Made by a program: the position numbers and the translations under genes
Shown: positions 24,234 to 59,803 of the stretch, one piece after another
How the letters are laid out: each line of letters begins with the position of its first letter
How positions within the stretch are numbered: the stretch's first letter is position 1
The notes under the pieces: model-generated
Database searches by the model: none
The model's input: only the letters and a program-made list of their open reading frames with translations
What the model was told of the DNA's origin: nothing
NCBI GenBank assembly: GCA_001798135.1
Contig: MGRJ01000031.1
Location: 57,589-121,588 of the forward strand
DNA from: Deltaproteobacteria bacterium RIFCSPHIGHO2_02_FULL_40_28
GTDB lineage: Bacteria; UBA10199; 2-12-FULL-40-28
DNA: 64,000 bases
Reading direction: 5' to 3'

Positions 24234-24325
24234 AGCCCGACGAGCTACCTGGCTGCTCTACCCCGCAGTCGTGGGTGGTGTATAAGGTTTTGAACTCGGT
24301 GTGTCAAGAAGGGAGTCGGGGCTTT

Positions 24326-47400: not shown

Positions 47401-50400
47401 AGGTAGCCATGCCCTGCATGATGCGCCCTTGCGCAATTCCACCCGCAACAGCTGCTAAATCAGAAACATGGATGGGATTTAAATCGACAACATATTTTTC
47501 AGCTAAATCTACTGGAATGGTTAACGAACCTTTAAACACCAAACGACTTTGAGGAAGATAGGCCAAACGTTCTGAAAGATACTTGGAAGCCACCACTCCC
47601 AATTTTTTGTACTCGGCCTTTAATAAATCTCCCAAACGTTTTTGTTCAGCTTCTACTTTAGCTTTGGCATCAGCATCACCTTCTTCTGCTTTTTTAATTA
47701 ATTTTGCTAAAGTCTCAATAGCTGTAGCATGCTTACCCATAAAGGCAGCATAGGCAGCTTGTGCCTTGGCTCCATCAAAATAAGGAATGCGTTTGGGGCT
47801 TGGCCTTTCTTTTAAGTCTTCATTCCATTCATCAATGTCAGTTTTTAAATCTTTTTGATACCCTTCAATAGCTAGGCGTTCAATAGTTTGAGCCGGGCTT
47901 GCCACATTGTTATAAACTGTTCTTCCTTCTAAAAGATTAATGGCGGCATCGGGAGCTTTAAATATAACGCGCTCTGGCCCTGTACGCATGCGGGATACCA
48001 AGGAAGAATCGATCACACGTACTAATTCTTCAGTTGCACCTTTTATACGATACACTTCAGCACGCACCACTATACGCCGACCTGCCAAGCGGCCATCATT
48101 AAAATCTTCGGCTTTTAAAAGACGAGAACGAGTTACAAGAGTATCCCCCACACGAATAGGGGCTACAAAATTAAAAGTTTTCCCCTCGTCAATTACACGA
48201 GTTGGATCCATATCGAATTCTTCCATAAACATGGCGCCATCCAAGGATTGCCACATGTCGTGCGAAAGATAATGCGGATGCACTTCAAAATTTCTGGCAT
48301 GGGCATCAAGATACTTGGCTTCTGTAGACCCAATGGAGGCTGCATAATCTGTTGCCTGACGGGGCGTTAAAGGAGATGACCGCCTCTCAAAAACTGCCCC
48401 TCCTGCACCTGCTTGTTCTTTAGAAACGCTAGCCCACTCGGTTGGAATATCCCAAATTTGTCTGTAAAAAACTCTAGCTTCCTTTCGAAATTGATCCATG
48501 TTTTCTTGTTCCCAAGTAGCACCCACTTTTTTGTAATTGCGGTTTAATTCATAGTGCGTGGTGAGATCGGATGGACTAGGATAATAATACTGAACCATGT
48601 GAATTCCACCGTCTCCCCTATTAGTAACAGCAAAAGAAAGCCGACCATTTTCGTAAAAATTAATGGTTTTTACTTTTCCATTTTCAAATTGAAATTCAAT
48701 TTCATGACGCGTTTTATCTTTTTCGGGAACATTCCGAATAAAACCAAGATAGGGATTATTTTCTGGTTTTCCCTCTACCGTTATTTTTTTAGCTTTTAAA
48801 AAATCGGTGAGAACACTGTCGGGATCAATACCTAAAATACCGTTTTTATATTTTTCAAATACACTGGGATTAGTTCCATCAGATTTTTCATCCATGCGCT
48901 TGGTTGGAACAACACGAACATTTAAATAATCATCACTTCCATCTACTGTTTTAACTTGTACTTGTACTCCATCAATGGCTTTTAGTTTTCCTACAGCAGA
49001 ATCATCTGTATCTTTTTTTGTTTTAGGTATTGTTTGCAAATGAGCTTTAAGGGGATCGTTGCTTGTAGTACGAAGCCAACTTTTCATTCCATCGGCATCT
49101 TCATCAACCACTCCTAAAATATCCATGCGCTTATTAGAAAACACAGCAGGAAGGGCAGTTTTAGCATGATGGGAAGAAGGTCCTACAGTTACAGCTGAAG
49201 TAGCACCGTGGCTTGCCGCCCAACGGTATTGATGGGGCATATTGACTGGCCAATGCCATTGCTGACGACGCAAGTTTAAAGCAATATCACTCTCTGGGGT
49301 AATGGGAGTGATATTATAATTATGAATTACAGTTGAAAGATAGGGAGCTCGCAAAGGAAGGGGTGTTCCTGGTTCATAATGATTGGCTGTGGCTAGAAGC
49401 CTTTCGTGCTCTGCGGGAGCATCTGCATAAACCCTGGGATTATGGGGAGGCATGGTAAGGCCCGTTTGAGTGAGAGGATCACGCACATTGTTATTCCACG
49501 AAAAAGAAGTAACAATGGGTTTTAAGCGGGTAACTGTTGCATCATCATAACCTGTCCAATCAAAATCACGCTTAAAAATAATCATCTTGGCCAATTCTGC
49601 CAAGGCTTTTCCATGACCAATCATCAAAATAAAATGAGAACGAGTCCCATCTTTGGTTTCATCTGTATTTACATTGTTCACAGCTACATAATCATCTGTT
49701 CCTGCATAACGAGTATTAATGGCTTCAACGAGTTGCCCCAACTCACTCTCACCTGGATTAAACCAATCATAGGGGATACCCGAAACCGTCATGGTAACCA
49801 AATTATATCTTTGAAAATAAGTGTCGATGTCTTGAGGTTTGGGTGGAATTTTTTTACCTTCACCGTCCATTTTAACTAAGGGATCAAATTCTGTGGCTCC
49901 CTCTGCATTGGCATTAAAGGGTCCTTCAAAAACAGCCCCTTCCGTAACAGACCATTCGATAAAATTTTGATACGCCTGCACCGTATGGTATCCACGGAAA
50001 TCCCCATCGTTTCTAGGAATCAAGGGGCGCTCATACCCTTCTACATCAAAGGAACCACCTGCAAAGTAAGCTGCAGGCAAGCCTCCCGATTGACCTAAGA
50101 GGGCCACAAATTGACCAAAATCATACCCATGAAGTTCCATCACCCTTACCCGAAGGGCCTGAACTAAGTTAATCATGGGAAAGGCATGGCTTACACGACT
50201 GATTTCAATGTAGTTGGCATAGATTTTTTGATCGGCATCGGCCATACGACGCAATTTTTCGATATCAATGCCATGGCGTATGAAAATATCGCGCAATTCA
50301 CCATAAAGTTTTTGAGCTTCAGGATAATTTTCGATTAAAAAGTTGAGTTCATTGATGTAACCTGCCCCCTGACCTGCAAACACAGCAAAGGGCTTATCGC

Positions 50401-51139
50401 GACCATCTCGAATATCTAAGGCTCTTTGAGCCATGGGCTCTAAGCCCTGTTTTCTAATTTCATCACGAAGCCTGGTATAAACTTCCCAATCGGTTGCATT
50501 GATGGAGGCTTTTTTAAGTGCATCATCTTTTGTAGGATCAGGATCAGCCTTACCATTCATTCCAAATTCATAATCGGCACGTGCTAAAAGTTCCCAAAGG
50601 AAAAGTGTTCTTTGTCCTTCAGTTATTTCTAAAAGCTCAGCATCATGATCTAAAACTACTTCTGCTAATCCTAAAGTTTTTCCTAAATTTTTAAAACGTC
50701 CCGAAAAATAAGTGGCATAATCTCCTTCTCCTTCGGCCTGAGCTAAAATGCTATGAGCAACAGCTTCAAATTGATCACTTACATAAACCACATCCCCACC
50801 TACAGAAATTCCTTTGAAATGAAATTCGCTGGGATAAATGGGATTACCATCTTGATCAAGCCCAATAGAGCCTGTAAAGCGCTGTAAACCACGTTCGGAA
50901 ACTGGGCCCACAAACATTTCAAGCCGGCTACGCAAGGCCTCCATTTGAGATCCCTCAACAAGACCCGATCGTTCTAACTTGCTCAACATGTTACGACGCA
51001 GTAGAGAAGTTTTAGCTGCTGAAACCTCAACTAAAACTTGCCCTACTTCAGAATCTTTTAAAGGTGTTGTTCGATCACCTGATATGATCTGTGAGTAAAT
51101 AGAGGCACCGATTGCATTCGCCATACTTTCTCCGTTCAT
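35408..51139 (-). CDS. Giant (5243 aa) type I fatty-acid-synthase-like megasynthase. N to C: AT-like domain, unknown region, malonyl/acyl transferase, two ACP-like domains, reductase-like region, fungal-type ketoacyl synthase, unknown/DH-like region, NMO-type TIM-barrel enoyl-reductase-like domain
   Basis: Single uninterrupted 15.7-kb ORF. Motifs: VFAGQGAGY (AT-like, about aa 250); VVFTGQGSQ + AYAGHSLG (MPT, about aa 1400-1510); two ACP-like units FKDDLGYDTNKINEL / FADDLGFDTNKINEV (about aa 1940-2200); KS Cys VVAACSTG plus SRPDD..GFVLGAGGG and KAHMGHLLGGSSG (about aa 3050-3500); PVIASGAYTTHEDVKGAFHWGASGVALDDAIL (ER-like, about aa 4700-4940). Likely start at the Met at 51124, preceded by GGAGAA. 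Confidence 0.8.
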   Translation of the reverse strand: MNGESMANAIGASIYSQIISGDRTTPLKDSEVGQVLVEVSAAKTSLLRRNMLSKLERSGLVEGSQMEALRSRLEMFVGPVSERGLQRFTGSIGLDQDGNPIYPSEFHFKGISVGGDVVYVSDQFEAVAHSILAQAEGEGDYATYFSGRFKNLGKTLGLAEVVLDHDAELLEITEGQRTLFLWELLARADYEFGMNGKADPDPTKDDALKKASINATDWEVYTRLRDEIRKQGLEPMAQRALDIRDGRDKPFAVFAGQGAGYINELNFLIENYPEAQKLYGELRDIFIRHGIDIEKLRRMADADQKIYANYIEISRVSHAFPMINLVQALRVRVMELHGYDFGQFVALLGQSGGLPAAYFAGGSFDVEGYERPLIPRNDGDFRGYHTVQAYQNFIEWSVTEGAVFEGPFNANAEGATEFDPLVKMDGEGKKIPPKPQDIDTYFQRYNLVTMTVSGIPYDWFNPGESELGQLVEAINTRYAGTDDYVAVNNVNTDETKDGTRSHFILMIGHGKALAELAKMIIFKRDFDWTGYDDATVTRLKPIVTSFSWNNNVRDPLTQTGLTMPPHNPRVYADAPAEHERLLATANHYEPGTPLPLRAPYLSTVIHNYNITPITPESDIALNLRRQQWHWPVNMPHQYRWAASHGATSAVTVGPSSHHAKTALPAVFSNKRMDILGVVDEDADGMKSWLRTTSNDPLKAHLQTIPKTKKDTDDSAVGKLKAIDGVQVQVKTVDGSDDYLNVRVVPTKRMDEKSDGTNPSVFEKYKNGILGIDPDSVLTDFLKAKKITVEGKPENNPYLGFIRNVPEKDKTRHEIEFQFENGKVKTINFYENGRLSFAVTNRGDGGIHMVQYYYPSPSDLTTHYELNRNYKKVGATWEQENMDQFRKEARVFYRQIWDIPTEWASVSKEQAGAGGAVFERRSSPLTPRQATDYAASIGSTEAKYLDAHARNFEVHPHYLSHDMWQSLDGAMFMEEFDMDPTRVIDEGKTFNFVAPIRVGDTLVTRSRLLKAEDFNDGRLAGRRIVVRAEVYRIKGATEELVRVIDSSLVSRMRTGPERVIFKAPDAAINLLEGRTVYNNVASPAQTIERLAIEGYQKDLKTDIDEWNEDLKERPSPKRIPYFDGAKAQAAYAAFMGKHATAIETLAKLIKKAEEGDADAKAKVEAEQKRLGDLLKAEYKKLGVVASKYLSERLAYLPQSRLVFKGSLTIPVDLAEKYVVDLNPIHVSDLAAVAGGIAQGRIMQGMATFAHVNEFVLNEMQRAGLMRDALGVANLKYTGFVGMGDKLFPEVTRTATAEGVDSYHVVVKNAQGTAVMSYDLVGKGVKTAVVFTGQGSQYLDMGNHLISDPARRARLAQFQEYMPKISASARKIQAALVRELKHYKYTAPTRAEAKIAGQARVMPVLYKALLEADAAQRHQPLLDAIDSLGIYIDADKREALKAAVNSIGLSPDGKEPIVDLVKSMNSKAGKTDKTEDDTSKVQPMIMAYSLILFEELQAKGLIPRDAAYAGHSLGMWITLVASGMLSPDDAMKAVYERGSSQVRYIDTERPQALVAVFPKGDEVEPLSEAQMTAMQEYVRGQCVEMEIEPPFVVEFSNDNSPKQWMIGGHKALFDKNPTTNPQYYRLAESVWGLFDQFGYTLNIRPIANAFHTSLMEMASADFLVYMRQHGIPFDPAKLDQAVDVYLDVEGKSLREIGREKGIAEDDFSPPTNERRKQLLGEIMAGQLARSVRWRANVRKMLEEGVRRFIEIGPSHHQSAGTLKPFIEEEVKYLKAKGIIKPDERIEIIYANSLKAFNTKEIGALTASAETAVVEVNRPDITVGEIKVETLEDLRRGAADEVAAQPQAIATVAPSSTSALKQVTPAEVKAIVDAFVGANKPAIEARQNLDALATQLSGQLVALGAGAADALKARQSELLGKAGNAQTSPLPQGGGAGGGSLVDDVIVTMKQLGQIGASEAVEGGTRFKDDLGYDTNKINELRNAYQSRHGIAIADSEIEKISTVNQFAALLEKKGVKLAATVAVASAATATLPPAEEVEQKAITQALTNSVMTNTSPLPQGEGAGGGVSSVDSTLSTFVAANRAAIDAGTHLDALATQLATQLQGLGASARSGLEARLAAITAQTGSAQTSPLPQGGGAGGGSLVDDIGLTMKQLSLVSVSETIEASTRFADDLGFDTNKINEVRSAYQAKYSITISDGDLEKVKSVNDFAKLLDKKGVKLGAAAVATTTTLSNEDKLIQQAIQTALASVGAASSAPAAAGDSPPPASPGATGARGAAVAVLATPSARGVEATDTRVGLDAKGAPTTYDSEQASRLAEAERRLGAVRVSTSDFFMDSLMQPHYADSIYYRGTEGGTETIDPRKILRGDMTAEDVTGVLTSVRAGMGVYGFNHVTQNGGIARLMRFVGYVRSAAFETRMPEDASDALRASLLDQEEREMRQIANGIDSIRLGWLRGFINAETKKRDATADTAEKARRQGRIDTLEHLYTLAAHRLDEGIIYTGKVIDIVSGNHVPTYGGAKKSQFVPDTDGTIEAAKRLADPTMADKKTGKDLQFLLEDGYDLRGHVALIHQASTITAGYASKWMQLGGNVMMTDYAGRSAERKGRVASDLYYDIYSEAADGASMDVVPNMQPGNRFDEDALLYYIEMKYVADLKQYKEDKEKYRKGELEVEPQMPHLPTLYINGAGREDYGSLADRGTPLDSLLVMALSTRWMAISLAKLHQKYKTGEKVVFVNLYTPNNAANLGELEGELNPAALPGSKSYHLTKNALPPGQTAAEAYANGIRDEEEKPILVEVARTTGWGKSDGRSETLMSGKDYYSQPLETESLAEGIKIKTLTGDELSTVGLSGALAAKFGKRKLRPPEGDTRKRVQGLWEYDDTYGFTSALRTGKFGEIEARVKETEDIKHTEAKARKAEEKKAAVDPSLIPLDGTIVDLNNINIAIKGETSSRYAYKPKTDILFEDETPVVRGYGMVGPLGTDALANYRNMLAAGLFKGHEGYSWLGNYDFYNLAKAMGVDVSQWGDYKKLAASIGLDDAVLEKFKTWQNAVEAHLLANSGIQEVGRFKEFEVLRQVAFGDNDKEIEIENTAKGINLPAATRTKLENAGLAIHRRPDGSLYALAKGGQTYFMKFTIQLPKTIAGDLPGQTSFDWEGMGVPASELRTGAKASFMAKMFTSQILMSAAGRSPKELDEVFGPKNVFVGIGTGLGDLEPFNEMTLKPMQIEDSVANYLMAALLPDSTTGQVATEQLGAEGMALAVVAACSTGNMNIVMAVKHLFSEYWAATRREESGMDVNWDEVFAKIWIAGGVDYAITFNAIFGFDAIGATIRDSVRRGRDIAIKMASRPDDMERFGFVLGAGGGGQGITPLSNAIKTGDPVYSMIAGAESRTDGDKQAYKGAREGYGIGQRSALFDAWDQAKEKLTEVLHTPEEMTGIVQELMVAVQRGKRAAGRAKAEFNADTAISTWGLKLTEQKALYNKLVERFGPKLTEEEWNKAVGEGRTGKNLVDFLVDNTRKLKENVRLVVMAHKTSTPMGDLYEEESIRLFLSSILDPTQFAHIVKTKAHMGHLLGGSSGSDSALSPLVMRFLGIPGDPGLDNIHAQGGENVTVYHHKHAENLRDLYDDDVTWVVLREAAGFNAKNTAIIEVMGKLGFETEESAVDYVAKLIEGVAKERVQKRAERQGLRKMFFNRATYQETPVSLYRDQYEVTLRSHAIARALVLEGRKLDWNNIESWVYQFPLNEGVELEVDTDLAQNNFVNPRVYTVDFENKKVKRLEVTADQASATNKRANAEIIRSQHNAIKYAEAQARVKEIYDSIGQREVNEMGHLARQKNWHRRPMVFYGMSDGMGMRTLIALIKSGAVKEVVGVHRDPNPVDPAKPEELVEKASAFNPAVLKALAETHGVNLQLLNVNAVPFDVGHPAATGTPTPLPKEVVEAVGKAFEPTVAEIRGWLTRKASRILNRPVLVKGTTKLEELGFTDPRGWLAAVNTEFDTELQWDNIKGLTVDALIKQNLLPGVNFFDSVAFGLPARAHYQPELSVPSMNSYGELEMKKIPNFASEKEEEIATIIPMGRSHPRLLDLFNEQGWLKGARGKHFGASETFWFDWRGSESDGMLGGVYGGATWETKGSLGRAKMTTKKELASPRLSDPKTGLRRVLSFPAFLSFALHAIPGGTLAGLIEKRIFEDIQSGALVLPGVDPAVTKFVSMNELSVRALLGALKGEFERGLYDQNIYVFVDKHEVSVYPEVARRIQEVQARLEARLGAEKAAWVANGKDIREFEGKMSREDTALLLTDILPGDYLKYTFEHIGDIKEKRTLERGIKHDAEGIAQLPMPEAFKGVSYPVLQRGFSPEVNTPSLAIAVIDAGGIGTLDAGNLKATETAAEKVLRERAARKAATEGGNGVNGVPDTLEARIDAVYAAVGNTAPLVVSLDVSASNFEAQLKVVAEKQVRGVMFRGGLPKTEQVIALNKVGIAVFQTVDTAAEVIKLTEMKVVEHEGKPNQKTTKAKFDAVVVERSISSGNINQAGENKFGDLSDLRDPRWDVMPTVPLRPINLQFKTTDFPSFRLYSNKSEVDFKLPETYAGYTGITHGGMLDSIFESVLEAMVKGGERVDINKLHRNVGYIANAPSNANVRIYVEKKPDGRIEMRMMELVDKPAEGGKPATREEKTLSNATFQDASKVKSKDKASTINPAELASNAQFGCLPNCVAAGHEHGTGLHFRFNYDDGKKALWGRVTPIEGQSRYHSMMLAADELTGWTGMMAFKIWGFTADNLYTPLRAPEANEAITLVAEVPEWDGLTSDMRMKVTFFGEDGQAIGVLTARYVPQMKAAQNVLARAIENLRAHPEDPEIRATFAFVKKALGHNFNKILQAVEQNRDMNADPELIVRKAREALYDAKIPVIASGAYTTHEDVKGAFHWGASGVALDDAILYSKESQYGGKTILSDPLTLSHPREGGDPSLGSSVAVRVIEDAEGRKLRLMDTPGALKLDTQLKFYREKIKDKTLTEAIAKPLMRTAVTNAFANAQSANDATRRQGGIFLASQNVGTVRVGEELESTFERLIHGREAPPPPEPGRDSGPDGGDGPSPGHREEPEERRGDPGSPSAPGEVAARATGELVSLADVAGLRSGLVQGVSHVGAQFIAPSEQGVINHAPTGEMDRATLLARLEEHGYGRDEMEGLGLENIHWQQLAMALDAEDPASAVDQVLEDVGVIEHAGPSARMEAMATRAGAMRRGSASPVVAAALKAAG
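36310..37100 (-). other. Enoyl-reductase-like FMN TIM-barrel (nitronate monooxygenase fold) domain (approximate bounds)
   Basis: ...IPVIASGAYTTHEDVKGAFHWGASGVALDDAIL resembles the NMO/FAS-ER G-rich FMN-binding segment. Confidence 0.5.
40640..41990 (-). other. Ketoacyl-synthase domain, fungal/CMN FAS-I type (approximate bounds)
   Basis: Active-site Cys codon at about 41362 in AACSTG. Downstream His/Lys-His motifs. Confidence 0.6.
44500..45372 (-). other. Tandem ACP-like domains with Thr at the canonical phosphopantetheine Ser position, separated by and flanked with three in-frame family B repeat cores
   Basis: Codons gat-acc (about 45221-45235) and gat-aca (about 44601-44609) encode D-T in the DLGxD(S/T) motif. 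The flanking helices align with E. coli ACP ([25 protein letters not shown] against SRHGIAIADSEIEKISTVNQFAALL). Confidence 0.6.
46000..46970 (-). other. Malonyl/acyl transferase (MPT-like) domain of the megasynthase (approximate bounds)
   Basis: GQGSQ and GHSLG (Ser codon at about 46610) read from the translation. Confidence 0.6.
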
Positions 51140-51427
51140 GGACCCAATTTAAAGCAATACCCCCTCGCTGCTTCACAGCAAGGCCTTCCAGACAAAACTC
51201 GAAAGATGAATAGTGATTCCTCTGCCCCAGGTGGACGGGAATGATGATTACTGACTTAAGACCCCAACACTCTAAAAACTGAATGGACGTTCAGCGTCCT
51301 TAGCGTAGCTGAAAATTCATTTCAAGAAAAAAATCAAATCTTTATCTGCCTCTTACAACCAAAGGTTGCTTCCTTTTTTTCCGTCATCCCTGCCTCTTTT
51401 GTCATCCCTGCGAAGGCAGGGATCCAT

Positions 51428-54400
51428 CTATATCTTCGCCTTAACCCAAGTCATTTCACCACGGCGTCGGGCTAATTGATACACATTAGCACCCCTTGCC
51501 CCATTTGTAGGGGCAGGTTCTAAACCTGCCCGGGCGGGTTCAAGCTCTTCTGCAATCACTGCTAAAGCTTCCATATTTTCGGCTTGGACAGCTGCTCTTA
51601 AAGCAAGTTCCATCTCTGCTGGGATAATATCCATTTCTGCGAATTCAGCTCCTAAATCAGCATCTACAGCAGCTATTACCTCTGCCAAGGGGGTTTGATC
51701 CATCTCAGTAGGAATGGCTAAATCGTGGAAACCAAGGGTGTCTAAAAGCTCGCGAGCGGTTTGAACAACCCACTCAGTATAAATCCCTCGGGTTGCCGCT
51801 CGGGATGCCCTTTCCTCAGGAGTTTCCAAGAATACTAATCTGGGAGCTAAACTAAGAGCGTTCGCTCCACTTACAGCGGATAAACCACCTAAAACTTCTC
51901 CACCTATTGCCAATCCTAATGGAGAATCCGTAGGGGCAGGTTCTAAACCTGCCCCCGAATCATGGACGGGTTGGGAACCCGCCCCTACACGATCTGTGGG
52001 TTCAACCCCTCGGCTCCCCCCTTGCTCTCTGGTAGGGACTTGCCCTTCTGCTGGCAGGCCACCACCAGAACCAGGAGAAGGTCTCTCTGGAGGTGTTACT
52101 CCATTGGCAAGCCCCGCCTTGACATAAATAGGTCCACGCTGGGATTTAGCTACTTCACCAAATCCACTACTTCCATTACGATACAGAACCGTATTACCTT
52201 CAAAAATTTCTGGCGTCTTTTCATAAGCAACTACAATGTGGGTTACTTGGGGAAATGCTGCTCTCACCCTCTCAAAAATATTCTGTTGAGTAAAAAATGG
52301 AATTCCGATGGGTTTGTTAATTCCCTTACTTTGACTCGGGGTTTTTACTTGTGAAAAACGAATAATTTTTCCGTCATCATGAACGCTAATACGAACATGT
52401 CTGGTTGAAGAAAAAACATAGGCACCGTTAACCTGTTCTTTTTCAACCCAACCTAACGCTTGTGCTACTGTTACAGGGGTTACAAGAGTAACTGGGGCGA
52501 CGCGTGGGTCGCCCCCTACATCAGGAGCAAGGGTAGTTACGGTAGGGGCAAACCCCTGTGTTTGCCCTTCTGTTGGTGGATCTCCTGGAGGAGGATCACC
52601 TGCTGGAGCACTCGAAGCAGGGCCGCCAGAAGGTGGGGTTCTCACCAAGGCCAATAAACCTTCTGCTAAACTTTCAGCTCCCATAACTGCTGATAAACGC
52701 CCACGCATTGGTTTTGGCAACATTTCTAAAAGCCCACGAGCACGTTCCATCAAAGTTACTGCTTGTCCAAACTTGGCCTCGTTAATTTTTTCTGCTAAGA
52801 AAGCTGTATTTTTTTGAATCCAATTTTCTACAAAGGCATTATCGGCCCATAATTCATCGTTGGTTCGACCTGGATTGCCACGCGTCGCCATGTCTTCATT
52901 AAACCAACCACGAATTTTTTCTCTCGCTTCTACAGGAGTGAGATTAAATTCTCCCGTATCTCCATCACGCCCAGAGGCCTGCAGAAGAGCTTTTCTTAAT
53001 TGATCAAAGGCCACACTTCTGGCCAACCATTGATGTCCTTCAGATCTAAAATCTTTCCAATCTACAATGCGGTTGATCACTCCTTTTGTAAGCATGCGTT
53101 CGGGCACATCATGGGCATCAGCAAATTGAGTGGCAATAGATCGATAAACAGGAAGAAGTATTTTTTCCCTGGCGGCAATTTGTTCTTTAAATCCTGTAGT
53201 TTGTCCACTATCAGCAGGCACCCTGGCAAGTTGAGATTCTAGCTCAATGATGGCATCATCACATTCTCTCATCTTGGCTTTTAAAAACTCATCATCTTTT
53301 CCCCAAATTTTAAGTCTGGCAGTAGCTCCTGCTTCCAAAACATTTCCACGAGAAGTAGATTCTGCCCAAAAGGTTGCTTGATCTTGATGATTAATGGTTG
53401 GATCAACCACCACCCAGGCTCCACCCCGCAGCTCTCCAAAGGGAGGCAGCATAATCATTACAGGAGCATCGTACTGACGCAATTCATCCACAATAAAAGA
53501 ACCATACTTCAAAATATGGTCGAACATGTTATCGACACCGCCCGAAAATCCTCTCCAGTTGGGAAGCACCACTAAAGGTAAACCTTCGCGCCTGGCATCC
53601 CCCATAAATTCAGCTGTTTTCCAAGCCGAATCAGACCACCACACCTTGCCTGCTTGATCCACACGCCTTTCAGAAGAAGCTCTCATGGCTGCATCAGCAG
53701 GAATAACTTTTTGTGTCGACCGTAATTCGGGTGTCAGCACAGCAACAGGAATACCTCCCCATCGAGCCCGACCCGTCACCACACTTTTAGCCCATTCCCC
53801 CATGTCTTCCTTAAAAGATCCCTCATCTAAAAAGCCCGGGGCATACTCTCCTTCAAAAGCAATGGTACCCTCTTTGGCAACAGGAGTTGGACCACCACGA
53901 ATTAAAAAGCGGGGATCATAAACCATTGCGGGGTCAAGAGGTTTCCAAAGGTTGGTGCGGTTTACTGGATCTGTGTTCTTTACAATGAGAAGTTCGCCGC
54001 CTTTTACTTTTGGAATAAAAGAAATCCAATCCAAAAAGGTTTTCATTCCAGCAATATCATCTTCTACCACAGTGCGAGTATTTCCATTGGCCGCATGAAT
54101 ATTCACTCCACCAAATTCCTGGTTATCGGTGTAATACTCATCTCCCATCAACTCATTCATCATGTCTTTACCAGTAAGCATCATGGCCGTGCCCCGTTTT
54201 TGAATGACACGACGATTTAAACGGCTAATATACGCCCCAATACCCACGTTTAGCCCCATTACGTAAGTGAAGGTAAGGCCTTCATCATAGGCCTTAGAGG
54301 CTTCTCCCGCAATGGTTCCAGAGCCTCTTAGATTTTCAACTCCAATACCATCGGGGCCATCTTTAATACCGGTAATTTTCCAACGAGTTTCACCTTCTAC

Positions 54401-57400
54401 AGTAATTTGTTCTGCTAAAATTTCTTCTGCAAATTTTGGATATTGTTCTTCAGTAAGATAAACATACCCTCCCTGAGCGGGATTGCTAGAATCATTCAAA
54501 GCATATTTTTTTGCTTTCTTTAATTCTTCAAAAACTCCAATGCGGGCTCCTGAATTAGCAGCAACATAAAGGAAAGGAAGTCCTGATTTTCTGGCATACT
54601 CGGAAGCCTTTTGATATACTTCATCTTCGGCCTCAGAAAAAGAACCATAATCGATATTAAAATCGTTGGTGGCAATAATGATGTCACGCCCCTCAGGAAA
54701 TTCAGGAGTACAAAGCGTTACCTTAAAGGCCACCATGCCTACAGTGTTTTGTCCTGCAGGTCGGCTTGTAGAAACCAAATTGCCATGTCTATCAACCACC
54801 ATTTCGACAGCAGAGACTACAGTAGAAGGATCGGCTGTTTCTATGAGTTTGGGAATATCATAAGCATAGGTTTGTCCCCTGCTTTGAGCAAACAAACGGC
54901 GTTTATCAATTTTATCCAAGGGAGTGTAGGGAGTATCCCGATCTTTTCCACCCAGATCATGGGCACCAAAAGTTAGAGCCCTGTAAGTAATTTGACCAGT
55001 GGTCCCATTGGTTACTTCCTCATAGCCATGAACTTCTAATTTATGCCCCGAAGGATTACTGGCTACAAAAAGATATGGCTTGGGCGCAGGATTACCATCT
55101 TTTAATAAAAGTTTTACCTCTACCATCCCCACCCGCAATTCTTTTAAACGTCCCAGATTGCGTTCGTAGATGGTTTGAATAACATGGGCTACATTGGTGG
55201 TTTCTAAATCGATGGGGTCTGATACATTCAAAAAAACTTGGTTAAAAGTTGTTTTGTCATAGGGAGAGCCTTTTCTTAAAGTCATCTCCATGGCATCCAA
55301 ACTTTCTGAAAAAGCCTCTTCAACTCGAGGAATAAAAATTACTTGTTCCGCCCCAATCCCATTGCGCCGGACCTTAGCTCCCCGAACAACATGTCTCACA
55401 AAAAAGCGGGAATCACGGTCTTTATCTTTGATGGGTTTTTGATCAACAGCGCGACCCCAAATGGGATCTCCTTCTCCACTCCTTATATTCACCACCTTCT
55501 CACGACCATAGTAGAGATGAATTTGGTGGTTAGGCACGGGCAGGGCCTGCACATCAAACCAACTCATCCGATTGGGAGTTAAAGTATAGGCCAGGGCTGG
55601 CTCCATGTGACGTACGATAACATCTTCCTTCCAACTCAAATCTTTGCGGAAAGTATAAAAAGCAGGATAGACCCCTGGTTTATTAATAATAAAACTCATC
55701 CGATTGATATTATAAGATTCAAATTTATTTTTCTGAGCATCAACTATCTTTTGCAAAGCAGCAAGAATAGCCTTTTCATCTCCTTGAGGAGCCTCTTTTA
55801 AAACCAAGTTGAGGGTTCTCTCTGTTCCTGAAGGAACCCCTACAAAACTTTCCAAAACCATATTCCAGTTTCTCTCAAGCTGTTCTTGATTTTGAAAAAC
55901 CATCATGGATCCAGAGCGAGCATCTCTACCTCTCACAGCACGTGCAGAACGATAATTCCATACCACCGCTTGGGTTTCACCACCCCCCACTAGAGGATAT
56001 CCATGGGTTTCAATTCTTGAAAATTCATGACCCCGATAAGCTCTTTTTACATAAACTTGCAAAGCAGTATCAATAACAGCCGGATCGGTATCAAACAAAT
56101 GGGGAACAACCAGCTGAAATAAAGATCGATGTTCTCCAACAAGAGCTGCTATGAGTCCATCTCGAAGTTCAGGGCGAGATCTATTGATTTCTAAAATACG
56201 GCTTCTCACTTGTCTAATTCCTTCCTCTATACCCACCTGACGATTTCTTAAAATGGCTTGGGCTGCCTTGTGAGCCAAGGGATCAAAGGCTTTGCCTCGA
56301 AGTGATTTAACCCCTACCAAACTCCCTGTTAAATCGCCTACCAGCCCTTTTTGAGACACTTGCTCCATTAAAGCTGCAATAAAAATATTTCTTTTTAAAA
56401 CAGGCTTGTCTTTTTTACTCTTGGCCTCGGCATCCTCCCACATGTAAATTTCATTGTGAGCTTGGGAATAAGCATGCACATCAATAGTTTTTTCTCGTTT
56501 TAATTCAACGGTGGCGCGATAATAAGTTTTCCCTTGGAAAGCTTGTTCTACTTTTGTAAATTCAGCAAATAAACCTCTAATCACTCGATTTCGGTTTCCA
56601 GCAATGCCCTCTTTGTAATTTTCAGCTAATTCTTGGAAAGGTTTTGCTGCCATTTTAAAAGCTTCTTGTTTGGCCTTTAAAATTTCAGCTTGTTTTTCCT
56701 CACGCTCAGCTTCTTTTAAGTCTCCCCTTTCAATTAAGGATTGCACTTCTCTAGCAGAGTCCCTTGCCAATTGATCTCCTGCTTCATATCGTGCAATTAT
56801 TTGAAGAATGTCTGCAGAAGGGAAAGCTGGTGGAGGAGAAGCAGCTAAACCAGCAGCATAGGCATCTACCAAGCTTCTTAATTGTTCACGAACAGTTCTG
56901 GGAAGGCTGCCCTGATAAACTGAATAAAAATAATTAAATTGCTCGATGGGAAGCCTTGGATTTTCAAGGGCAGTAAAAAGTTGGTTTATAACCAAACTTG
57001 CAAGATTTTCCATACCACTGTCTGGTCCAAAACCTCCAAGGATTTGCCTGGCCTGATTATAAGCCCATTCGTACTGGCTTCTTAAACTCTCTCCCACTTT
57101 TAAGGGGGATGCCATTGCACGCAATTGATCAGCAAAAAGCACCGCCTTTTTCACTTTATCGGGTTCCTTTAAATCTATGTTGGCTAAAAGGTCTCCGGCT
57201 ACAACTCCTGTGTTGGGAGCTATGGTGTACGAAAGTATTCCATCTTCCAAGGCCACCATTTGACTTACTGCTTTCATGGCCTCATATTCAATAATGGGCA
57301 TTCCTTTTTTAACTTCCGATCCATTAGGAACCAAGTAACGAATAAATTTTCCGGGAGCTTCTGCTAAAATTTTGGAAGGATCATATTCGTTGGGGAAAAA

Positions 57401-59803
57401 TACTGTTTTCCAACCCACATCCAGTTGCAATCCACTGGGAAGCGCACGACCAGAAACCAATTGGTATTTTCCATCAACACCAATCATATAATCTCTGCCC
57501 GCCTCCGGTCCTACTTGCAACACATGGGCTTCTACTGCTCTTCCATTGAGATTCAAAGAATAGCGACCATCACCTAAGTAATTTACCTTAAAGCTATACT
57601 TGGTATCTTCTGTCTCCCTATTAATCACATCAACAGCAAAGCTGGTATCTAAAAGCCTGGCAAAGGGGACATGGCCCCTGTTAGATTCGGCCTGATATTC
57701 CTTTTGTCGGCCCAATAAAGTTTCGTGAGCTTTAAAGGCTGCAGCTAAAACAATGCTCAAATCTTTTTCGGGCTGGTTTACCAAACCACCACTCTCTACC
57801 AATTCATCTAGTTTGGTAGTCGTAGCTTCTGTTGATGAATTTTTTCGAAAAGTATCAGACTCTAAGTATTGCAAAATGGCTGCTGCAGGAGTTCTAAATT
57901 GGGGAACTCGAAGCATTTGAAGAGCCACGGCCATTTTATTAATGGCGTCATCTCTATTTTCACCATGGGCAAAAATATGCATGAATTGCGAATCGGCAAA
58001 TTCGTGAATTCCTCCTGGAGCTGCAAAAGAAGTATAGCCCCAAACACCGGGCATATTTCTAAAAGTGATCTCATGGGCACTTCCAGGAGAGGCCCTCCAA
58101 CCACGGTCGGGATCTCGTGCAGTAATACGAACAGCAATCACATGCCCACGCGGTGGAAGAGGTTCTTTGGTATCAAAATCAATGAGGGTATGTCCCCAGG
58201 GATCTTCTCCATACAGTCTTCGAATATCAGGAATACGATGAAGACTGGCCCCCATCTCAACATGCAATTGCGCCACAGGAAGATTTACTCCTGTAATCAT
58301 TTCACTTACAGGATGCTCTACTTGTAAACGAGGATTTACTTCTAAAAAGAAAGCTTCGTTGTCTACGGTGCTATATAAATTTTCAATGGTGCCTGCATTT
58401 TGGTAGCCCACCATTTTCATGGCAGCCACAGCAGATCGACGCATTTTTAAACGTTCATCTTCATGCAATCCAATAGGTGGACCTTCTTCAATTACTTTTT
58501 GAAAGTCTTTTTGAGTAGAACAATCTCGTTCGTACAAAACAATGGCCTGCCCATGCTTATCGGCCAAGCCTTGCAGCTCGATGTGCCGGGCATTGGGAAT
58601 AAAAGCCATGATTAACACAGGGCCCGCTACTTCGGCTTGAGTTTGCGTAAAAAGTTTTCGGATTTCCTCGTCGAGTGTTGCTGGATCTTCAATTAATTTT
58701 TCAAGCTTACGAATTCCCTTTCCTCCTCCTCCAAACACAGCTTTAAACATAAAGGGAACTTGAATATTTTTTTCACGAATAACGCGCACGGCATCATCAG
58801 CAGTAGTAACCGTTGAGAGGGCATAAATTTCAGGGGGAATATTGGTTACATCCTCAATGCGACCTTCTAAACCAAATCCACTCCAAGGAGCAATACGCAT
58901 GCCGGCCTTGCCGCCAACCAATAAGGCAGAAGCCTTGTCTCCAAAGGCATTCATGGCGCATGCTCGGGGACCAATAAAGCCAATTCCAAGTTCATCTAAA
59001 CGCGTAGGTAATGCTGGATTTTCAGAAGCAAAGCCCCAACCAGGCCACACAGCATCAACTCCATGGGTATGGGCTAAATCTACAATCAAATCGACATTAG
59101 AAAAATTATTAGCGGGACCTCCATCGGGTACTAAAGCAATTTCACAGCCCAGGGTTGCTGCTAAACGAATAAACTCGGCATTGGCTTTTAAATCCTGGGC
59201 TGTCACCATGATGACAAACTTGATTTCATCAGGGTGCCCAAAGGTTTCGTAAGACCATTGCCAGATAGAACGAATAAACTTGGCAGCAGCCATGCCTGAG
59301 TTTGCAATTAAAATTTTGCTTATGGGTTTTTCTGCACCAATAAAACTTGAATATTCATCAATGGAATTAAAACGACGGGAAGGGCTAATACTAACCACTC
59401 TTGGAATCGGAAACAAATTTGCAGGTACTACAAATATCCCTTCTTGGCTAAGTGCAGCTTGAGGCATAGACCACTTGGGAAATGCTAGATCCAAGGAAGA
59501 TAAATCACTGGGAATGGCAAGAGGAAAAACAACAACATCAGTATCAACAACAGTAATGCCATGTAAGTAAGCCTCTAAGGCTTGTTTCGCTGCTGCTCTT
59601 GGACCTTCTTCACCAGAAGTTCCGGCAAGAATAGTACCTAATTTTCTGATAATATCGGCAGGGGCAACCCAGTCTGTTGGATTACCTAATCCAAGGCTCT
59701 CACTTGCAGGGGCAAGAGCCACTTCAAGAGAGATTACTTCTCCTGAAACTTCTCCTGCAATGATTCTTCTCCAAGTTGCACTATCCGCCATAACATCCCT
59801 CAA
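51428..59803 (-). CDS. Single-chain multidomain acetyl-CoA carboxylase, eukaryote-type: biotin carboxylase, BCCP, central domain, carboxyltransferase, with extra N- and C-terminal extensions
   Basis: BC motifs (KILIANSGMAAAKFIRS, EVNPRLQVEHPVSE). Biotinyl-lysine motif IEYEAMKAV (Lys codon at about 57272). CT beta/alpha motifs (DIIIATNDFNIDYGSFSEAEDE; GG..VVVDP). 2791 aa. SD GAGGGA precedes the ATG at 59803. Confidence 0.85.
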   Translation of the reverse strand: MRDVMADSATWRRIIAGEVSGEVISLEVALAPASESLGLGNPTDWVAPADIIRKLGTILAGTSGEEGPRAAAKQALEAYLHGITVVDTDVVVFPLAIPSDLSSLDLAFPKWSMPQAALSQEGIFVVPANLFPIPRVVSISPSRRFNSIDEYSSFIGAEKPISKILIANSGMAAAKFIRSIWQWSYETFGHPDEIKFVIMVTAQDLKANAEFIRLAATLGCEIALVPDGGPANNFSNVDLIVDLAHTHGVDAVWPGWGFASENPALPTRLDELGIGFIGPRACAMNAFGDKASALLVGGKAGMRIAPWSGFGLEGRIEDVTNIPPEIYALSTVTTADDAVRVIREKNIQVPFMFKAVFGGGGKGIRKLEKLIEDPATLDEEIRKLFTQTQAEVAGPVLIMAFIPNARHIELQGLADKHGQAIVLYERDCSTQKDFQKVIEEGPPIGLHEDERLKMRRSAVAAMKMVGYQNAGTIENLYSTVDNEAFFLEVNPRLQVEHPVSEMITGVNLPVAQLHVEMGASLHRIPDIRRLYGEDPWGHTLIDFDTKEPLPPRGHVIAVRITARDPDRGWRASPGSAHEITFRNMPGVWGYTSFAAPGGIHEFADSQFMHIFAHGENRDDAINKMAVALQMLRVPQFRTPAAAILQYLESDTFRKNSSTEATTTKLDELVESGGLVNQPEKDLSIVLAAAFKAHETLLGRQKEYQAESNRGHVPFARLLDTSFAVDVINRETEDTKYSFKVNYLGDGRYSLNLNGRAVEAHVLQVGPEAGRDYMIGVDGKYQLVSGRALPSGLQLDVGWKTVFFPNEYDPSKILAEAPGKFIRYLVPNGSEVKKGMPIIEYEAMKAVSQMVALEDGILSYTIAPNTGVVAGDLLANIDLKEPDKVKKAVLFADQLRAMASPLKVGESLRSQYEWAYNQARQILGGFGPDSGMENLASLVINQLFTALENPRLPIEQFNYFYSVYQGSLPRTVREQLRSLVDAYAAGLAASPPPAFPSADILQIIARYEAGDQLARDSAREVQSLIERGDLKEAEREEKQAEILKAKQEAFKMAAKPFQELAENYKEGIAGNRNRVIRGLFAEFTKVEQAFQGKTYYRATVELKREKTIDVHAYSQAHNEIYMWEDAEAKSKKDKPVLKRNIFIAALMEQVSQKGLVGDLTGSLVGVKSLRGKAFDPLAHKAAQAILRNRQVGIEEGIRQVRSRILEINRSRPELRDGLIAALVGEHRSLFQLVVPHLFDTDPAVIDTALQVYVKRAYRGHEFSRIETHGYPLVGGGETQAVVWNYRSARAVRGRDARSGSMMVFQNQEQLERNWNMVLESFVGVPSGTERTLNLVLKEAPQGDEKAILAALQKIVDAQKNKFESYNINRMSFIINKPGVYPAFYTFRKDLSWKEDVIVRHMEPALAYTLTPNRMSWFDVQALPVPNHQIHLYYGREKVVNIRSGEGDPIWGRAVDQKPIKDKDRDSRFFVRHVVRGAKVRRNGIGAEQVIFIPRVEEAFSESLDAMEMTLRKGSPYDKTTFNQVFLNVSDPIDLETTNVAHVIQTIYERNLGRLKELRVGMVEVKLLLKDGNPAPKPYLFVASNPSGHKLEVHGYEEVTNGTTGQITYRALTFGAHDLGGKDRDTPYTPLDKIDKRRLFAQSRGQTYAYDIPKLIETADPSTVVSAVEMVVDRHGNLVSTSRPAGQNTVGMVAFKVTLCTPEFPEGRDIIIATNDFNIDYGSFSEAEDEVYQKASEYARKSGLPFLYVAANSGARIGVFEELKKAKKYALNDSSNPAQGGYVYLTEEQYPKFAEEILAEQITVEGETRWKITGIKDGPDGIGVENLRGSGTIAGEASKAYDEGLTFTYVMGLNVGIGAYISRLNRRVIQKRGTAMMLTGKDMMNELMGDEYYTDNQEFGGVNIHAANGNTRTVVEDDIAGMKTFLDWISFIPKVKGGELLIVKNTDPVNRTNLWKPLDPAMVYDPRFLIRGGPTPVAKEGTIAFEGEYAPGFLDEGSFKEDMGEWAKSVVTGRARWGGIPVAVLTPELRSTQKVIPADAAMRASSERRVDQAGKVWWSDSAWKTAEFMGDARREGLPLVVLPNWRGFSGGVDNMFDHILKYGSFIVDELRQYDAPVMIMLPPFGELRGGAWVVVDPTINHQDQATFWAESTSRGNVLEAGATARLKIWGKDDEFLKAKMRECDDAIIELESQLARVPADSGQTTGFKEQIAAREKILLPVYRSIATQFADAHDVPERMLTKGVINRIVDWKDFRSEGHQWLARSVAFDQLRKALLQASGRDGDTGEFNLTPVEAREKIRGWFNEDMATRGNPGRTNDELWADNAFVENWIQKNTAFLAEKINEAKFGQAVTLMERARGLLEMLPKPMRGRLSAVMGAESLAEGLLALVRTPPSGGPASSAPAGDPPPGDPPTEGQTQGFAPTVTTLAPDVGGDPRVAPVTLVTPVTVAQALGWVEKEQVNGAYVFSSTRHVRISVHDDGKIIRFSQVKTPSQSKGINKPIGIPFFTQQNIFERVRAAFPQVTHIVVAYEKTPEIFEGNTVLYRNGSSGFGEVAKSQRGPIYVKAGLANGVTPPERPSPGSGGGLPAEGQVPTREQGGSRGVEPTDRVGAGSQPVHDSGAGLEPAPTDSPLGLAIGGEVLGGLSAVSGANALSLAPRLVFLETPEERASRAATRGIYTEWVVQTARELLDTLGFHDLAIPTEMDQTPLAEVIAAVDADLGAEFAEMDIIPAEMELALRAAVQAENMEALAVIAEELEPARAGLEPAPTNGARGANVYQLARRRGEMTWVKAKI

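What the first reader, a model, noticed from the sequence alone, without database searches (positions are those of the whole stretch)
51428..52700. ACC C-terminal extension of about 500 aa built from in-frame family C/A repeats plus an unassigned domain of about 100 aa
Beyond the carboxyltransferase domain the ORF continues through at least five palindromic-element copies translated as GDPPTEGQTQGFAPTVTTLAPDVGGDPRVAPV, SGAGLEPAPTD and ARAGLEPAPTNGARG. It ends at a stop codon lying inside a REP-A unit (51401-51428). Between the repeat-derived linkers is a compact segment (GAYVFSSTRHVRISVHDDGKIIRFSQVKTPSQSKGINKPIGIPFFTQQNIFERVRAAFPQVTHIVVAYEKTPEIFEGNTVLYRNG) and an acidic helical tail. This extension could be a regulatory or docking domain fused to ACC, or an artefactual read-through created by repeat insertion.
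Basis: seen in the sequence. Interest (0 to 1): 0.55.

Follow-up and report, generated by a model that had tools for sequence, protein, structure and literature searches.

The report
Repeat-stitched orphan tail on ACC
A giant eukaryote-type acetyl-CoA carboxylase in an uncultured groundwater bacterium carries about 400 extra C-terminal residues: two protein segments with no relatives anywhere, joined by linkers that are in-frame translations of short selfish palindromic repeats. It is a real but modest new example of a known phenomenon.

Summary
ORF 51428-59803 (-) is a single-chain ACC with domain order BC-BT-BCCP-central-CT. Homology to other ACCs ends near aa 2390. About 400 further codons follow, not 500.

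The extra region has five parts:
- a Pro/Gly spacer plus a REP dimer
- a basic alpha/beta segment of about 140 aa
- a REP cluster
- an acidic helical segment of about 130 aa
- one more REP plus 20 aa

The stop codon shares 2 of its 3 bases with a REP-A unit. The palindromes carry the GTAG tag of the known REP superfamily and also occur in intergenic DNA in this window and across many phyla.

This is not an assembly artefact, because the gene is base-identical in three independent assemblies. It is not chance read-through either: P(no stop) is about 4e-11, and the two non-repeat segments show the same codon periodicity and codon usage as the ACC core. Neither segment has any homolog, Pfam family or fold match, and no ortholog exists to locate the ancestral stop by comparison.

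Best reading: a genuinely coding, lineage-specific appendage whose linkers are REP-encoded. Function is unknown. In-frame REPs are already documented, and FtsY and the neighbouring FAS in this window carry them too.

Verdict: new member of a known kind, moderate-to-low interest.

The parts
52643..59791 (-). ACC core (aa 5-2387 of the 2791-codon ORF): N-terminal 155 aa with no family match, then BC, BT, BCCP, central domain, CT and the conserved C-terminal helices
   Evidence: Pfam domains. PDB alignment to human ACC CT up to aa 2332. C-terminal alignment with complete ACCs.
52586..52642 (-). Pro/Gly/Ser-rich spacer (RTPPSGGPASSAPAGDPPP) at the expected ancestral C-terminus
   Evidence: Homologs end 115-165 residues after the FADxHD motif, which corresponds to about aa 2340-2395 here. 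Predicted disordered.
52490..52585 (-). REP dimer 1 read in frame (GDPPTEGQTQGFAPTVTTLAPDVGGDPRVAPV). GTAG-tagged hairpins at 52542-52567 and 52494-52519.
   Evidence: Hairpins. RNA hairpin energies -13.1 and -18.0 kcal/mol. Peptide matches the translation of the intergenic copy at 34937-34990.
52061..52489 (-). Orphan module 1 (about aa 2439-2581): basic (pI 9.85), predicted helix plus three strands, twice over
   Evidence: AF2 single-sequence model, pLDDT 52, pTM 0.55, same topology in both runs. GC1/2/3 = 0.56/0.43/0.25 and codon log-odds 0.36. No homolog or fold match.
51926..52060 (-). REP cluster 2 read in frame (GLPAEGQVPTREQGGSRGVEPTDRVGAGSQPVHDSGAGLEPAPTD). Degenerate copy at 52032-52060; REPIN-like inverted pair at 51964-51988 and 51930-51955.
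   Evidence: (D1, D4, I1, I2). Hairpins -16.8 and -21.4 kcal/mol. Peptides match intergenic copies at 5816-5860 and 11194-11272.
51536..51925 (-). Orphan module 2 (aa 2627-2756): acidic (pI 4.05), predicted helical
   Evidence: AF2 helices, pLDDT 50-71. GC1/2/3 = 0.65/0.45/0.31 and codon log-odds 0.54. No homolog. No similarity to the FAS tail or ACP.
51507..51541 (-). GTAG-REP 3 plus an adjacent half copy, read in frame (LEPARAGLEPAPTNG)
   Evidence: 100% identical over 25 nt to the copy at 51930-51954 (D1). Hairpin -17.6 kcal/mol.
51428..51506 (-). Last 25 codons (basic; the final 20 are ANVYQLARRRGEMTWVKAKI) and the stop TAG (51428-51430)
   Evidence: Translation. pI 11.45 for aa 2757-2791.
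51401..51429 (.). REP-A unit GTCATCCCTGCGAAGGCAGGGATCCATCT. Its last two bases are the first two bases (on the + strand) of the ACC stop codon.
   Evidence: Hairpin -13.9 kcal/mol.

Best explanation
The last ~400 codons of this ACC gene are real coding sequence and are translated as part of the ACC polypeptide. They form a lineage-specific appendage hanging off the carboxyltransferase C-terminus.

The layout is: disordered Pro/Gly linker, then a basic alpha/beta orphan module, then a disordered acidic linker, then an acidic helical orphan module, then a short basic end.

The linkers are in-frame translations of GTAG-tagged REP palindromes. These are selfish, normally intergenic hairpin repeats. 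In the frame used they encode stop-free G/A/P/T-rich peptides, so they are tolerated at flexible inter-module positions. The same pattern is seen in FtsY and in the FAS of this genome.

The most likely history, which is inferred, is 3' accretion. REPs normally sit just after stop codons. The ACC stop was lost and the frame ran on across REP-filled spacers into pre-existing coding segments. The present stop was supplied at the edge of a REP-A unit.

The REP peptides probably act only as passive tethers. The two oppositely charged orphan modules are most plausibly a flexibly tethered interaction or regulatory appendage. That last step is conjecture.
For: Shown:
- The homology boundary lies at about aa 2390.
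- The gene is identical in independent assemblies and present on 12 contigs.
- P(no stop in 404 codons) = 4.4e-11.
- Codon log-odds stay positive through the whole extension and drop below zero after the stop.
- The orphan modules have core-like GC1>GC2>GC3 and purine-1 bias. They exceed 83 of 84 open wrong-frame stretches and all 19 of 100 codons or longer.
- The antisense ORF 51962-52354 scores negative.
- There is no in-frame start codon in aa 2388-2512 and no SD-associated start at the head of either module.
- The REP-derived peptides match translations of intergenic copies.
- The elements carry the GTAG tag and form stable hairpins.
- In-frame REP clusters also sit between the N and G domains of FtsY, in the FAS, and in a Type ISP enzyme of a Chloroflexota MAG.

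From the literature:
- Most REPs lie within 20 bp of the 3' end of the upstream ORF.
- Intragenic REP dimers or clusters encoding 20-82 aa are documented (PMC3733652; PMC10969869).
Against: - There is no ortholog, so neither the ancestral stop nor the order of events is observed.
- There is no sequence variation among assemblies, so purifying selection on the tail cannot be measured.
- There is no expression or proteomic evidence.
- The structure models are low confidence (pLDDT 43-52) and match no known fold.
- Neither module has any homolog among 1.84 billion representatives. That is unusual if they were once free-standing genes.
- REP clusters are often stop-free in some frame. Mechanical ORFs of purN and the PPTase also run through them. 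Open REP segments alone therefore prove little.
Confidence: 0.55

Rival explanations
1. An older functional C-terminal domain pair into which REPs inserted later. On this view the ACC of this lineage already had a two-module C-terminal extension, for example for assembly with the FAS or for regulation. GTAG-REPs then invaded its flexible linkers secondarily, as they did in FtsY.
For: REP clusters demonstrably sit inside ancient single genes in this window: FtsY between the N and G domains and the FAS ER region and ACP-flanking linkers. Two REP copies in the tail are 100% identical over 25 nt, which suggests recent arrival. The modules have mature codon usage and no start codons of their own.
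Against: REP dimer 1 lies only about 20 codons after the expected ancestral end, which is the typical position of a 3'-flanking REP (PMC3733652). No other ACC among 113 homologs has a tail longer than 248 residues after the FADxHD motif. The modules have no homolog anywhere.
Confidence: 0.25
2. A tolerated but functionless tail. A stop-codon loss fused ACC to downstream sequence. The appended polypeptide is disordered baggage that is neutral, or is clipped or degraded, and will eventually decay.
For: There is no homolog, family or fold for any part. About a third of the tail is predicted disordered linker. The literature argues that intragenic REPs in unrelated proteins speak against functional constraint (PMC3733652).
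Against: Roughly 285 non-REP codons at 41-47% GC remain open, and both modules have core-like codon periodicity. That is not expected of recently read-through non-coding DNA. It does not exclude former genes that are now idle.
Confidence: 0.15
3. An assembly or sequencing artefact or a pseudogene. The true gene would stop near aa 2390, with a missed stop or frameshift in GC-rich palindromes creating the long ORF.
For: GC-rich hairpins are error-prone in some sequencing chemistries. All data are metagenomic.
Against: The 8364-nt gene is identical in the NCBI MAG, an ENA assembly and a Logan assembly. The identical protein is recorded on 12 contigs and under four NCBI protein accessions. The coding signal continues in the same frame on both sides of every REP cluster.
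Confidence: 0.03

Closest known systems
Intragenic GTAG-/CGTC-tagged REPs (Di Nocera, De Gregorio and Rocco 2013, PMC3733652), e.g. in Opitutus terrae, Thauera and Xanthomonas genes
   Same: Short palindromes of 20-40 bp with a terminal GTAG tag. They often occur as dimers or clusters, are mostly intergenic just 3' of ORFs, and are sometimes read in frame inside known proteins, adding 20-82 aa. The elements here carry GTAGGGGC...GCCCCTAC, form dimers, and encode 32, 45 and 15 aa.
   Different: Here three REP clusters bracket two orphan segments and together build a ~400-aa C-terminal extension, rather than decorating the interior of a conserved protein. The host is an uncultured groundwater 'Deltaproteobacteria' MAG. 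No RAYT gene is seen in the window.
Rickettsia palindromic elements (RPE; Ogata et al. 2000, as summarised in PMC10969869)
   Same: Selfish palindromic DNA inserted in frame into unrelated protein-coding genes, translated with the host protein, and compatible with its fold.
   Different: RPEs are about 100-150 bp, encode a conserved peptide, and are Rickettsia-specific families. The units here are 25-30 bp GTAG-REPs that also occur across many phyla.
Eukaryotic multidomain acetyl-CoA carboxylase (yeast Acc1, human ACC1/ACC2)
   Same: Same domain order and 42-46% identity in the CT region. The C-terminal helices align up to about aa 2390.
   Different: Eukaryotic and metagenomic homologs end 50-248 residues after the FADxHD motif. 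This protein ends 565 residues after it. It is encoded in a bacterial operon with a type I FAS and a PPTase.
Docking domains and flexible ACP tethers of megasynthases (PKS/NRPS docking domains, fungal FAS ACP linkers)
   Same: Short helical terminal modules on flexible Pro/Ala/Gly-rich linkers at the ends of giant lipid or polyketide enzymes. The neighbouring FAS also ends in a REP-linked acidic helical tail.
   Different: There is no sequence or profile similarity to any docking-domain family, and none between the ACC and FAS tails or the FAS ACP. The analogy is architectural only.

Membership tests
Eukaryote-type single-chain acetyl-CoA carboxylase | Domain order BC - BT - BCCP - central domain - CT on one polypeptide | tested here: met
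   Pfam: Biotin_carb_N 161-284, CPSase_L_D2 332-522, Biotin_carb_C 558-657, ACCA_BT 681-783, Biotin_lipoyl 816-876, ACC_central 878-1610, Carboxyl_trans 1701-2253.
Eukaryote-type single-chain acetyl-CoA carboxylase | Biotin-accepting lysine in an (A/V)MK motif of the BCCP domain | tested here: met
   'IIEYEAMKAVSQM' lies within the Biotin_lipoyl match. The residue after K is A rather than the usual M.
Eukaryote-type single-chain acetyl-CoA carboxylase | Polypeptide ends about 110-190 residues after the FADxHD motif of the CT domain | tested here: not met
   565 residues follow the motif, against a median of 159 and a maximum of 248 in 113 homologs. This is the extension under study.
GTAG-tagged REP superfamily | GTAG tetranucleotide at one end of the unit | tested here: met
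   GTAGGGGC... at 52542, 51930 and 51507. ...GCCCCTAC (the reverse complement) at 52494-52519 and 51964-51988. The definition is from PMC3733652.
GTAG-tagged REP superfamily | Short (20-40 bp) self-complementary stem-loop | tested here: met
   8-10 bp GC-rich stems with loops of 3-6 nt. RNA folding energies -13 to -21 kcal/mol.
GTAG-tagged REP superfamily | Repeated in the genome, often as closely spaced units in opposite orientation | tested here: met
   9 matches to GTAGGGGC-N14-GCCC against 0.2 expected. Dimers at 34938-34996, 11272-11330, 35694-35749, 51930-51988 and 52494-52567. Only 64 kb of the genome could be examined.
GTAG-tagged REP superfamily | Predominantly extragenic location | tested here: not met
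   The copies in question lie inside the ACC ORF. Other copies in the window are intergenic. In other phyla only 9 of 216 strand-specific hits lie in frames open for 100 codons or more on both sides. Intragenic exceptions are documented.
GTAG-tagged REP superfamily | Cognate RAYT (REP-associated tyrosine transposase) gene in the genome | not testable with these tools
   No Y1 transposase hit among the window ORFs scanned.
Rickettsia palindromic elements (RPE) | In-frame insertion into protein-coding genes | tested here: met
   ACC tail, FtsY and FAS.
Rickettsia palindromic elements (RPE) | Unit of about 100-150 bp belonging to one of the Rickettsia RPE sequence families | tested here: not met
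   Units here are 25-30 bp. RPE size is taken from PMC10969869. The elements work like RPEs but are not members.
Known docking, regulatory or carrier domain families | Significant profile or fold match of the orphan modules | tested here: not met
   No meaningful hit in Pfam, NCBIfam, PHROGs or PADLOC. PDB sequence search has no hit beyond aa 2332. Foldseek best E-values are 0.4 to 1.

The most novel reading that the evidence does not exclude
REP clusters here may act as a bacterial counterpart of exon shuffling. Because they are stop-free in the frame used and encode flexible G/A/P/T peptides, they would have welded formerly separate coding segments onto a eukaryote-type ACC. They would likewise have supplied the flexible tethers in the adjacent giant FAS. 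On this reading the resulting oppositely charged tail modules are functional docking or regulatory elements that couple ACC to the FAS in a bacterial lipogenic megacomplex.
Probability: 0.12. Interest if true: 0.65.

Novelty: new member of a known kind. Interest (0 to 1): 0.35.

Why it matters
If the tail is translated and retained, it shows selfish REP palindromes doing more than decorating proteins. They would be providing ready-made flexible linkers and possibly mediating the fusion of new modules onto a very large essential enzyme in a free-living, uncultured bacterium.

For annotation, the result warns in two directions. Long C-terminal 'extensions' in REP-rich genomes can be genuine coding sequence. 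Equally, REP-derived peptides such as AGLEPAPT or GDPRVAP in protein databases are repeat translations, not domains.

The practical value is limited until expression or comparative data exist. The surrounding ACC-FAS-PPTase operon is the more remarkable feature.

Tried and rejected
**Homology searches**
- Word-indexed search of the extension found no hit.
- Exhaustive phmmer against 1.84 billion representatives found 0 hits.
- Pfam, NCBIfam, PHROGs and PADLOC gave only noise, such as UBA_RAD5A at E=0.12 and RegB at E=0.017.
- PDB sequence search found nothing beyond the CT domain.

**Related loci**
- Genome contigs held no relative.
- Metagenome contigs held no relative.
- The source region appears to be masked in those collections.

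**Selection test**
- The 90% cluster of the protein contains only N-terminal or internal fragments.
- The three fetched assemblies have zero nucleotide differences. dN/dS was therefore impossible.

**Structure**
- The AF2 single-sequence model of the whole tail has pLDDT 43.
- The model of module 1 alone has pLDDT 52.
- Foldseek against PDB found nothing below E=0.4. The recurring helix plus three-strand topology is noted but not trusted.

**Ideas tested and dropped**
- The ACC and FAS tails share a docking motif, or the ACC tail is a degenerate ACP. Local alignment scores do not exceed shuffles (z = -1.45, -0.76 and 0.33).
- The tail is encoded by the antisense ORF 51962-52354. Its codon score is negative in the non-repeat part.
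- The modules are still separate genes. There is no usable start codon.
- An internal terminator truncates the mRNA. Terminator-like hits do not exceed shuffles.
- Cyanobacterial origin, suggested by the tRNA intron. There are no HIP1 sites, and the NCBI records name the organism as Deltaproteobacteria.

**Context of the nearest ACC homolog**
- The contig of P0066 looks eukaryotic, with the gene split into several calls. It is useless as a bacterial comparator.
Full report
**What is there**

The minus strand carries an uninterrupted ORF at 51428..59803. It is 2791 codons from TTG. Public gene calls start at the ATG at 59791, giving 2787 aa. Pfam shows the full architecture of a eukaryote-type single-chain acetyl-CoA carboxylase: BC, BT, BCCP, ACC_central and Carboxyl_trans, the last at aa 1701-2253.

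The window is bacterial, with nirB, purA and serA present. It matches exactly contig MGSL01000028.1 of NCBI assembly GCA_001799145.1, a JGI metagenome contig (sample 3300002223) and several other public assemblies. NCBI names the protein as hypothetical, from 'Deltaproteobacteria bacterium' MAGs.

A 5243-aa fungal/CMN-like type I FAS (35408..51139) and a PPTase follow on the same strand.

**Where the ACC homology ends**

The Pfam CT match stops at aa 2253, but the conserved C-terminal helices continue beyond it.
- phmmer against PDB aligns the protein to human ACC2 CT up to aa 2332. That is chain residue 697 of 760.
- A MAFFT alignment with C-terminally complete homologs places their ends opposite about aa 2385-2400.
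- In 113 of the 120 best homologs the distance from the FADxHD motif to the C-terminus has median 159, 90th percentile 170 and maximum 248. Here it is 565.

The extension is therefore about aa 2388-2791, roughly 400 aa at window 51431-52642.

**Anatomy of the extension**

1. A Pro/Gly/Ser spacer.
2. A dimer of palindromes at 52542-52567 and 52494-52519, read as TEGQTQGFAPT...GGDPRVAPV.
3. A non-repeat segment of about 140 aa. It is basic (pI 9.85) and predicted as helix plus three strands, twice over.
4. A cluster with a degenerate copy (52032-52060) and an inverted pair at 51964-51988 and 51930-51955, read as VGAGSQPV...AGLEPAPT.
5. A non-repeat segment of about 130 aa. It is acidic (pI 4.05) and predicted helical.
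6. One more copy plus a half copy (51507-51541), read as AGLEPAPT.
7. Twenty basic residues and the stop TAG at 51428-51430.

The stop shares two of its three bases with the conserved flank of a REP-A unit at 51401-51429.

**What the palindromes are**

They are far above chance. The counts are 4 against 0, 9 against 0.2 and 9 against 0 expected. They fold into hairpins of -13 to -21 kcal/mol.

The copies in the tail have the form GTAGGGGC-(palindrome)-GCCCCTAC. They therefore carry the terminal GTAG tag that defines one of the two REP superfamilies described by Di Nocera et al. (PMC3733652).

Copies of the same families lie in intergenic DNA elsewhere in the window. A tblastn of the tail against the rest of the window matched only the repeat-derived peptides, at 34937-34990, 5816-5860 and 11194-11272.

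The exact 26-nt family-C unit occurs in more than 119 loci from Chloroflexota, Brocadiaceae, Planctomycetota, Nitrospirae, cyanobacteria and other groups. There it is mostly outside long open frames: only 9 of 216 strand-specific hits lie in frames open for 100 codons or more on both sides.

**Is the tail real coding sequence?**

- Reproducibility. The 8364-nt gene is base-identical in the NCBI MAG, an ENA assembly and a Logan assembly. The identical protein is on 12 contigs. An assembly artefact is very unlikely.
- Openness. With the stop frequency of non-coding frames (0.057), 404 open codons have P = 4.4e-11. By the same rate, about 285 non-REP codons alone would give roughly 5e-8; this second figure is my own arithmetic.
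- Codon log-odds. A model trained on confident genes of the window stays positive in the ACC frame through the whole tail (0.22-0.76 bits per codon). It falls below zero right after the stop. All other frames are negative outside the palindromes.
- Per-segment values. The scores are 0.36 (module 1), 0.54 (module 2) and 0.27 and 0.37 (linkers). True-frame windows give 0.49 ± 0.14. Open wrong-frame stretches give -0.29 ± 0.25. Only 1 of 84 such stretches, and 0 of 19 that are 100 codons or longer, reaches the modules' values.
- Periodicity. GC1/GC2/GC3 is 0.56/0.43/0.25 for module 1 and 0.65/0.45/0.31 for module 2, against 0.56/0.41/0.33 for the ACC core. The purine bias at codon position 1 is the same.
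- No independent translation. There is no in-frame start codon in aa 2388-2512, and none with an SD-like motif at the head of module 2.

This is not what read-through into non-coding DNA looks like. The modules can only be made as part of ACC.

**What the modules are**

This remains unknown.
- No hit in the 5.8-billion word-indexed search.
- No hit in the exhaustive phmmer over 1.84 billion representatives.
- No meaningful hit in Pfam, NCBIfam, PHROGs or PADLOC.
- No hit in PDB by sequence.
- The AF2 models are low confidence, and Foldseek finds nothing below E = 0.4.

One caveat applies. The 90% cluster of this protein is represented by a 989-aa N-terminal fragment. That is why the protein did not hit itself in those searches.

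The FAS also ends in REP-derived peptides followed by an acidic helical tail. The two tails, and the FAS ACP, show no similarity beyond shuffles.

**In-frame REPs are a property of this genome and a known phenomenon**

- FtsY (3630..4625) has the SRP54_N domain at aa 16-65 and the GTPase domain at aa 127-326. The roughly 60 residues between them are translations of one REP-A and two CCCCCTCCCC-type palindromes.
- The FAS carries three in-frame copies of a 39-nt element, spaced 225 and 384 nt apart, upstream of its ACP.
- The FAS also has a REP-A unit right after the part of its enoyl-reductase domain that aligns to nitropropane dioxygenase.
- A GTAG-REP dimer lies near the FAS C-terminus.
- In a Chloroflexota MAG the family-C unit is read as VGAGLKPAPT within a Type ISP restriction enzyme ORF, about 155 residues past the best Type_ISP_C stretch and 115 codons before the stop.

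The literature already documents several relevant points (PMC3733652; PMC10969869):
- GTAG/CGTC REPs occur inside genes.
- Dimers or clusters encode 20-82 aa.
- About 10% lie at the end of coding regions.
- Rickettsia RPEs are the extreme case.

**How it most likely works**

Shown: the tail is coding-like, is reproducible, is translatable only with ACC, and has linkers that are REP translations.

Inferred: REPs normally lie within about 20 bp of the 3' end of an ORF, and REP dimer 1 begins only about 20 codons after the expected ancestral end. The simplest history is loss of the ACC stop and accretion of downstream coding segments across REP-filled spacers. The present stop would then have been supplied at the edge of a REP-A unit.

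The alternative order of events is equally compatible with the FtsY precedent. In that version an older two-module tail was later invaded by REPs. The two orders cannot be separated without a sister genome.

The REP peptides (G/A/P/T-rich, predicted disordered) most likely serve only as flexible tethers. A docking or regulatory role for the basic and acidic modules is conjecture.

**Comparative test not possible**

The best ACC homologs are only 42-46% identical over the CT region, and most named ones are eukaryotic. One metagenomic top hit sits on a contig where the gene is split into several calls, as expected of a eukaryote. Scans of the genome and metagenome collections returned no relative.

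**Verdict**

Its 'fused domain' is supported only in the sense of genuine coding sequence, and function is open.

This is a new member of a known kind, namely REP/RPE-decorated proteins. It is unusual in that REP clusters bracket two orphan modules to give a ~400-aa C-terminal appendage on a giant enzyme. Interest is moderate to low at 0.35. The ACC-FAS-PPTase operon and the intron-split initiator tRNA nearby are arguably more remarkable.

Noticed in passing
window 23533-24267 (-): An initiator-type tRNA(CAU) gene is split in its anticodon loop by a group I intron of about 661 nt (about 23573-24233). The 5' exon GCGGGGTAGAGCAGCCAGGTAGCTCGTCGGGCT ends near 24234. The 3' exon CATAACCCGAAGGTCCCAGGTTCAAATCCTGGCCCCGC starts near 23572. 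Rfam RF00028 matches 23609-23808 at 57.4 bits. The 5' part of the intron holds a PD-(D/E)XK endonuclease ORF (PF11645, from the ATG at 24213). ARAGORN misses the gene.
   Followed up: partly
window 3630-4625 (-), elements at 4267-4289, 4331-4353, 4386-4405: FtsY carries an in-frame insert of about 60 aa between its SRP54_N (aa 16-65) and GTPase (aa 127-326) domains. The insert is made of one REP-A and two CCCCCTCCCC-type palindromes (KMDPRLRGDD, SPLPGGEG, SPPRGEG). Selfish repeats are therefore translated inside an essential gene.
   Followed up: partly
window 35408-51139 (-): A 5243-aa type I FAS with Pfam hits in the order FAS1_DH/MaoC, acyltransferase, ACP, KS, NMO-type enoyl reductase. The ER is thus at the C-terminal end, unlike the CMN/fungal order as I recall it. 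It carries in-frame repeats: three copies of a 39-nt element at 44723, 44948 and 45332; REP-A at 36284 within the ER region; and a GTAG-REP dimer at 35694-35749. It ends in an acidic helical tail.
   Followed up: partly
window 34409-59803 (-): The operon-like arrangement of eukaryote-type ACC, giant FAS and PPTase sits in a bacterial MAG. The nearest ACC homologs are only 42-46% identical and most named ones are eukaryotic. No close ortholog was found in 5.8 billion proteins, which suggests an isolated lineage or an old transfer.
   Followed up: partly
L001-L119 (genome-contig hits): The exact GTAG-REP unit GTAGGGGCAGGTTnnnAACCTGCCCC occurs in more than 119 loci from very distant phyla, including Chloroflexota, anammox Planctomycetota, Nitrospirae, cyanobacteria, Bacteroidales and Omnitrophota. 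The loop is mostly TCA/TGA. Such cross-phylum identity is odd for REPs, many of which are species-specific.
   Followed up: partly
L103:3559-6822 (+), Chloroflexota MAG CBDAOU010000002.1: A Type ISP restriction-modification ORF of 1088 aa has the same REP read in frame as VGAGLKPAPT at about aa 973. That is about 155 residues past the best Type_ISP_C stretch (aa 590-818) and 115 codons before the stop.
   Followed up: partly
window 59326-59791 (-): The ACC has an N-terminal region of about 155 aa before the biotin carboxylase domain with no Pfam match. It was not searched separately.
   Followed up: no
window 3134-3161, inside ORF 2820-3590 (-): A GTAG-type palindrome (GGGCACAGCGCGCTGTGCCCCTAC) lies inside a TatD ORF whose Pfam match is full length with no obvious insertion (aa 3-255 against profile 1-253). 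It may be a REP that replaced native sequence rather than adding to it, or a chance look-alike.
   Followed up: no
protein cluster of P0121: Methodological point. The 90% cluster holding this 2787-aa protein is represented by a 989-aa N-terminal fragment (P0122). The C-terminal two thirds of the protein are therefore invisible to the representative-based searches, and the absence of a self-hit there does not mean the protein is missing from the collection.
   Followed up: yes
window 51285-51299 (-): A terminator-like hairpin GGACGCTGAACGTCC followed by ATTCAGTTTT lies in the 288-nt ACC-FAS spacer. The number of such hits in the region does not exceed shuffles.
   Followed up: no
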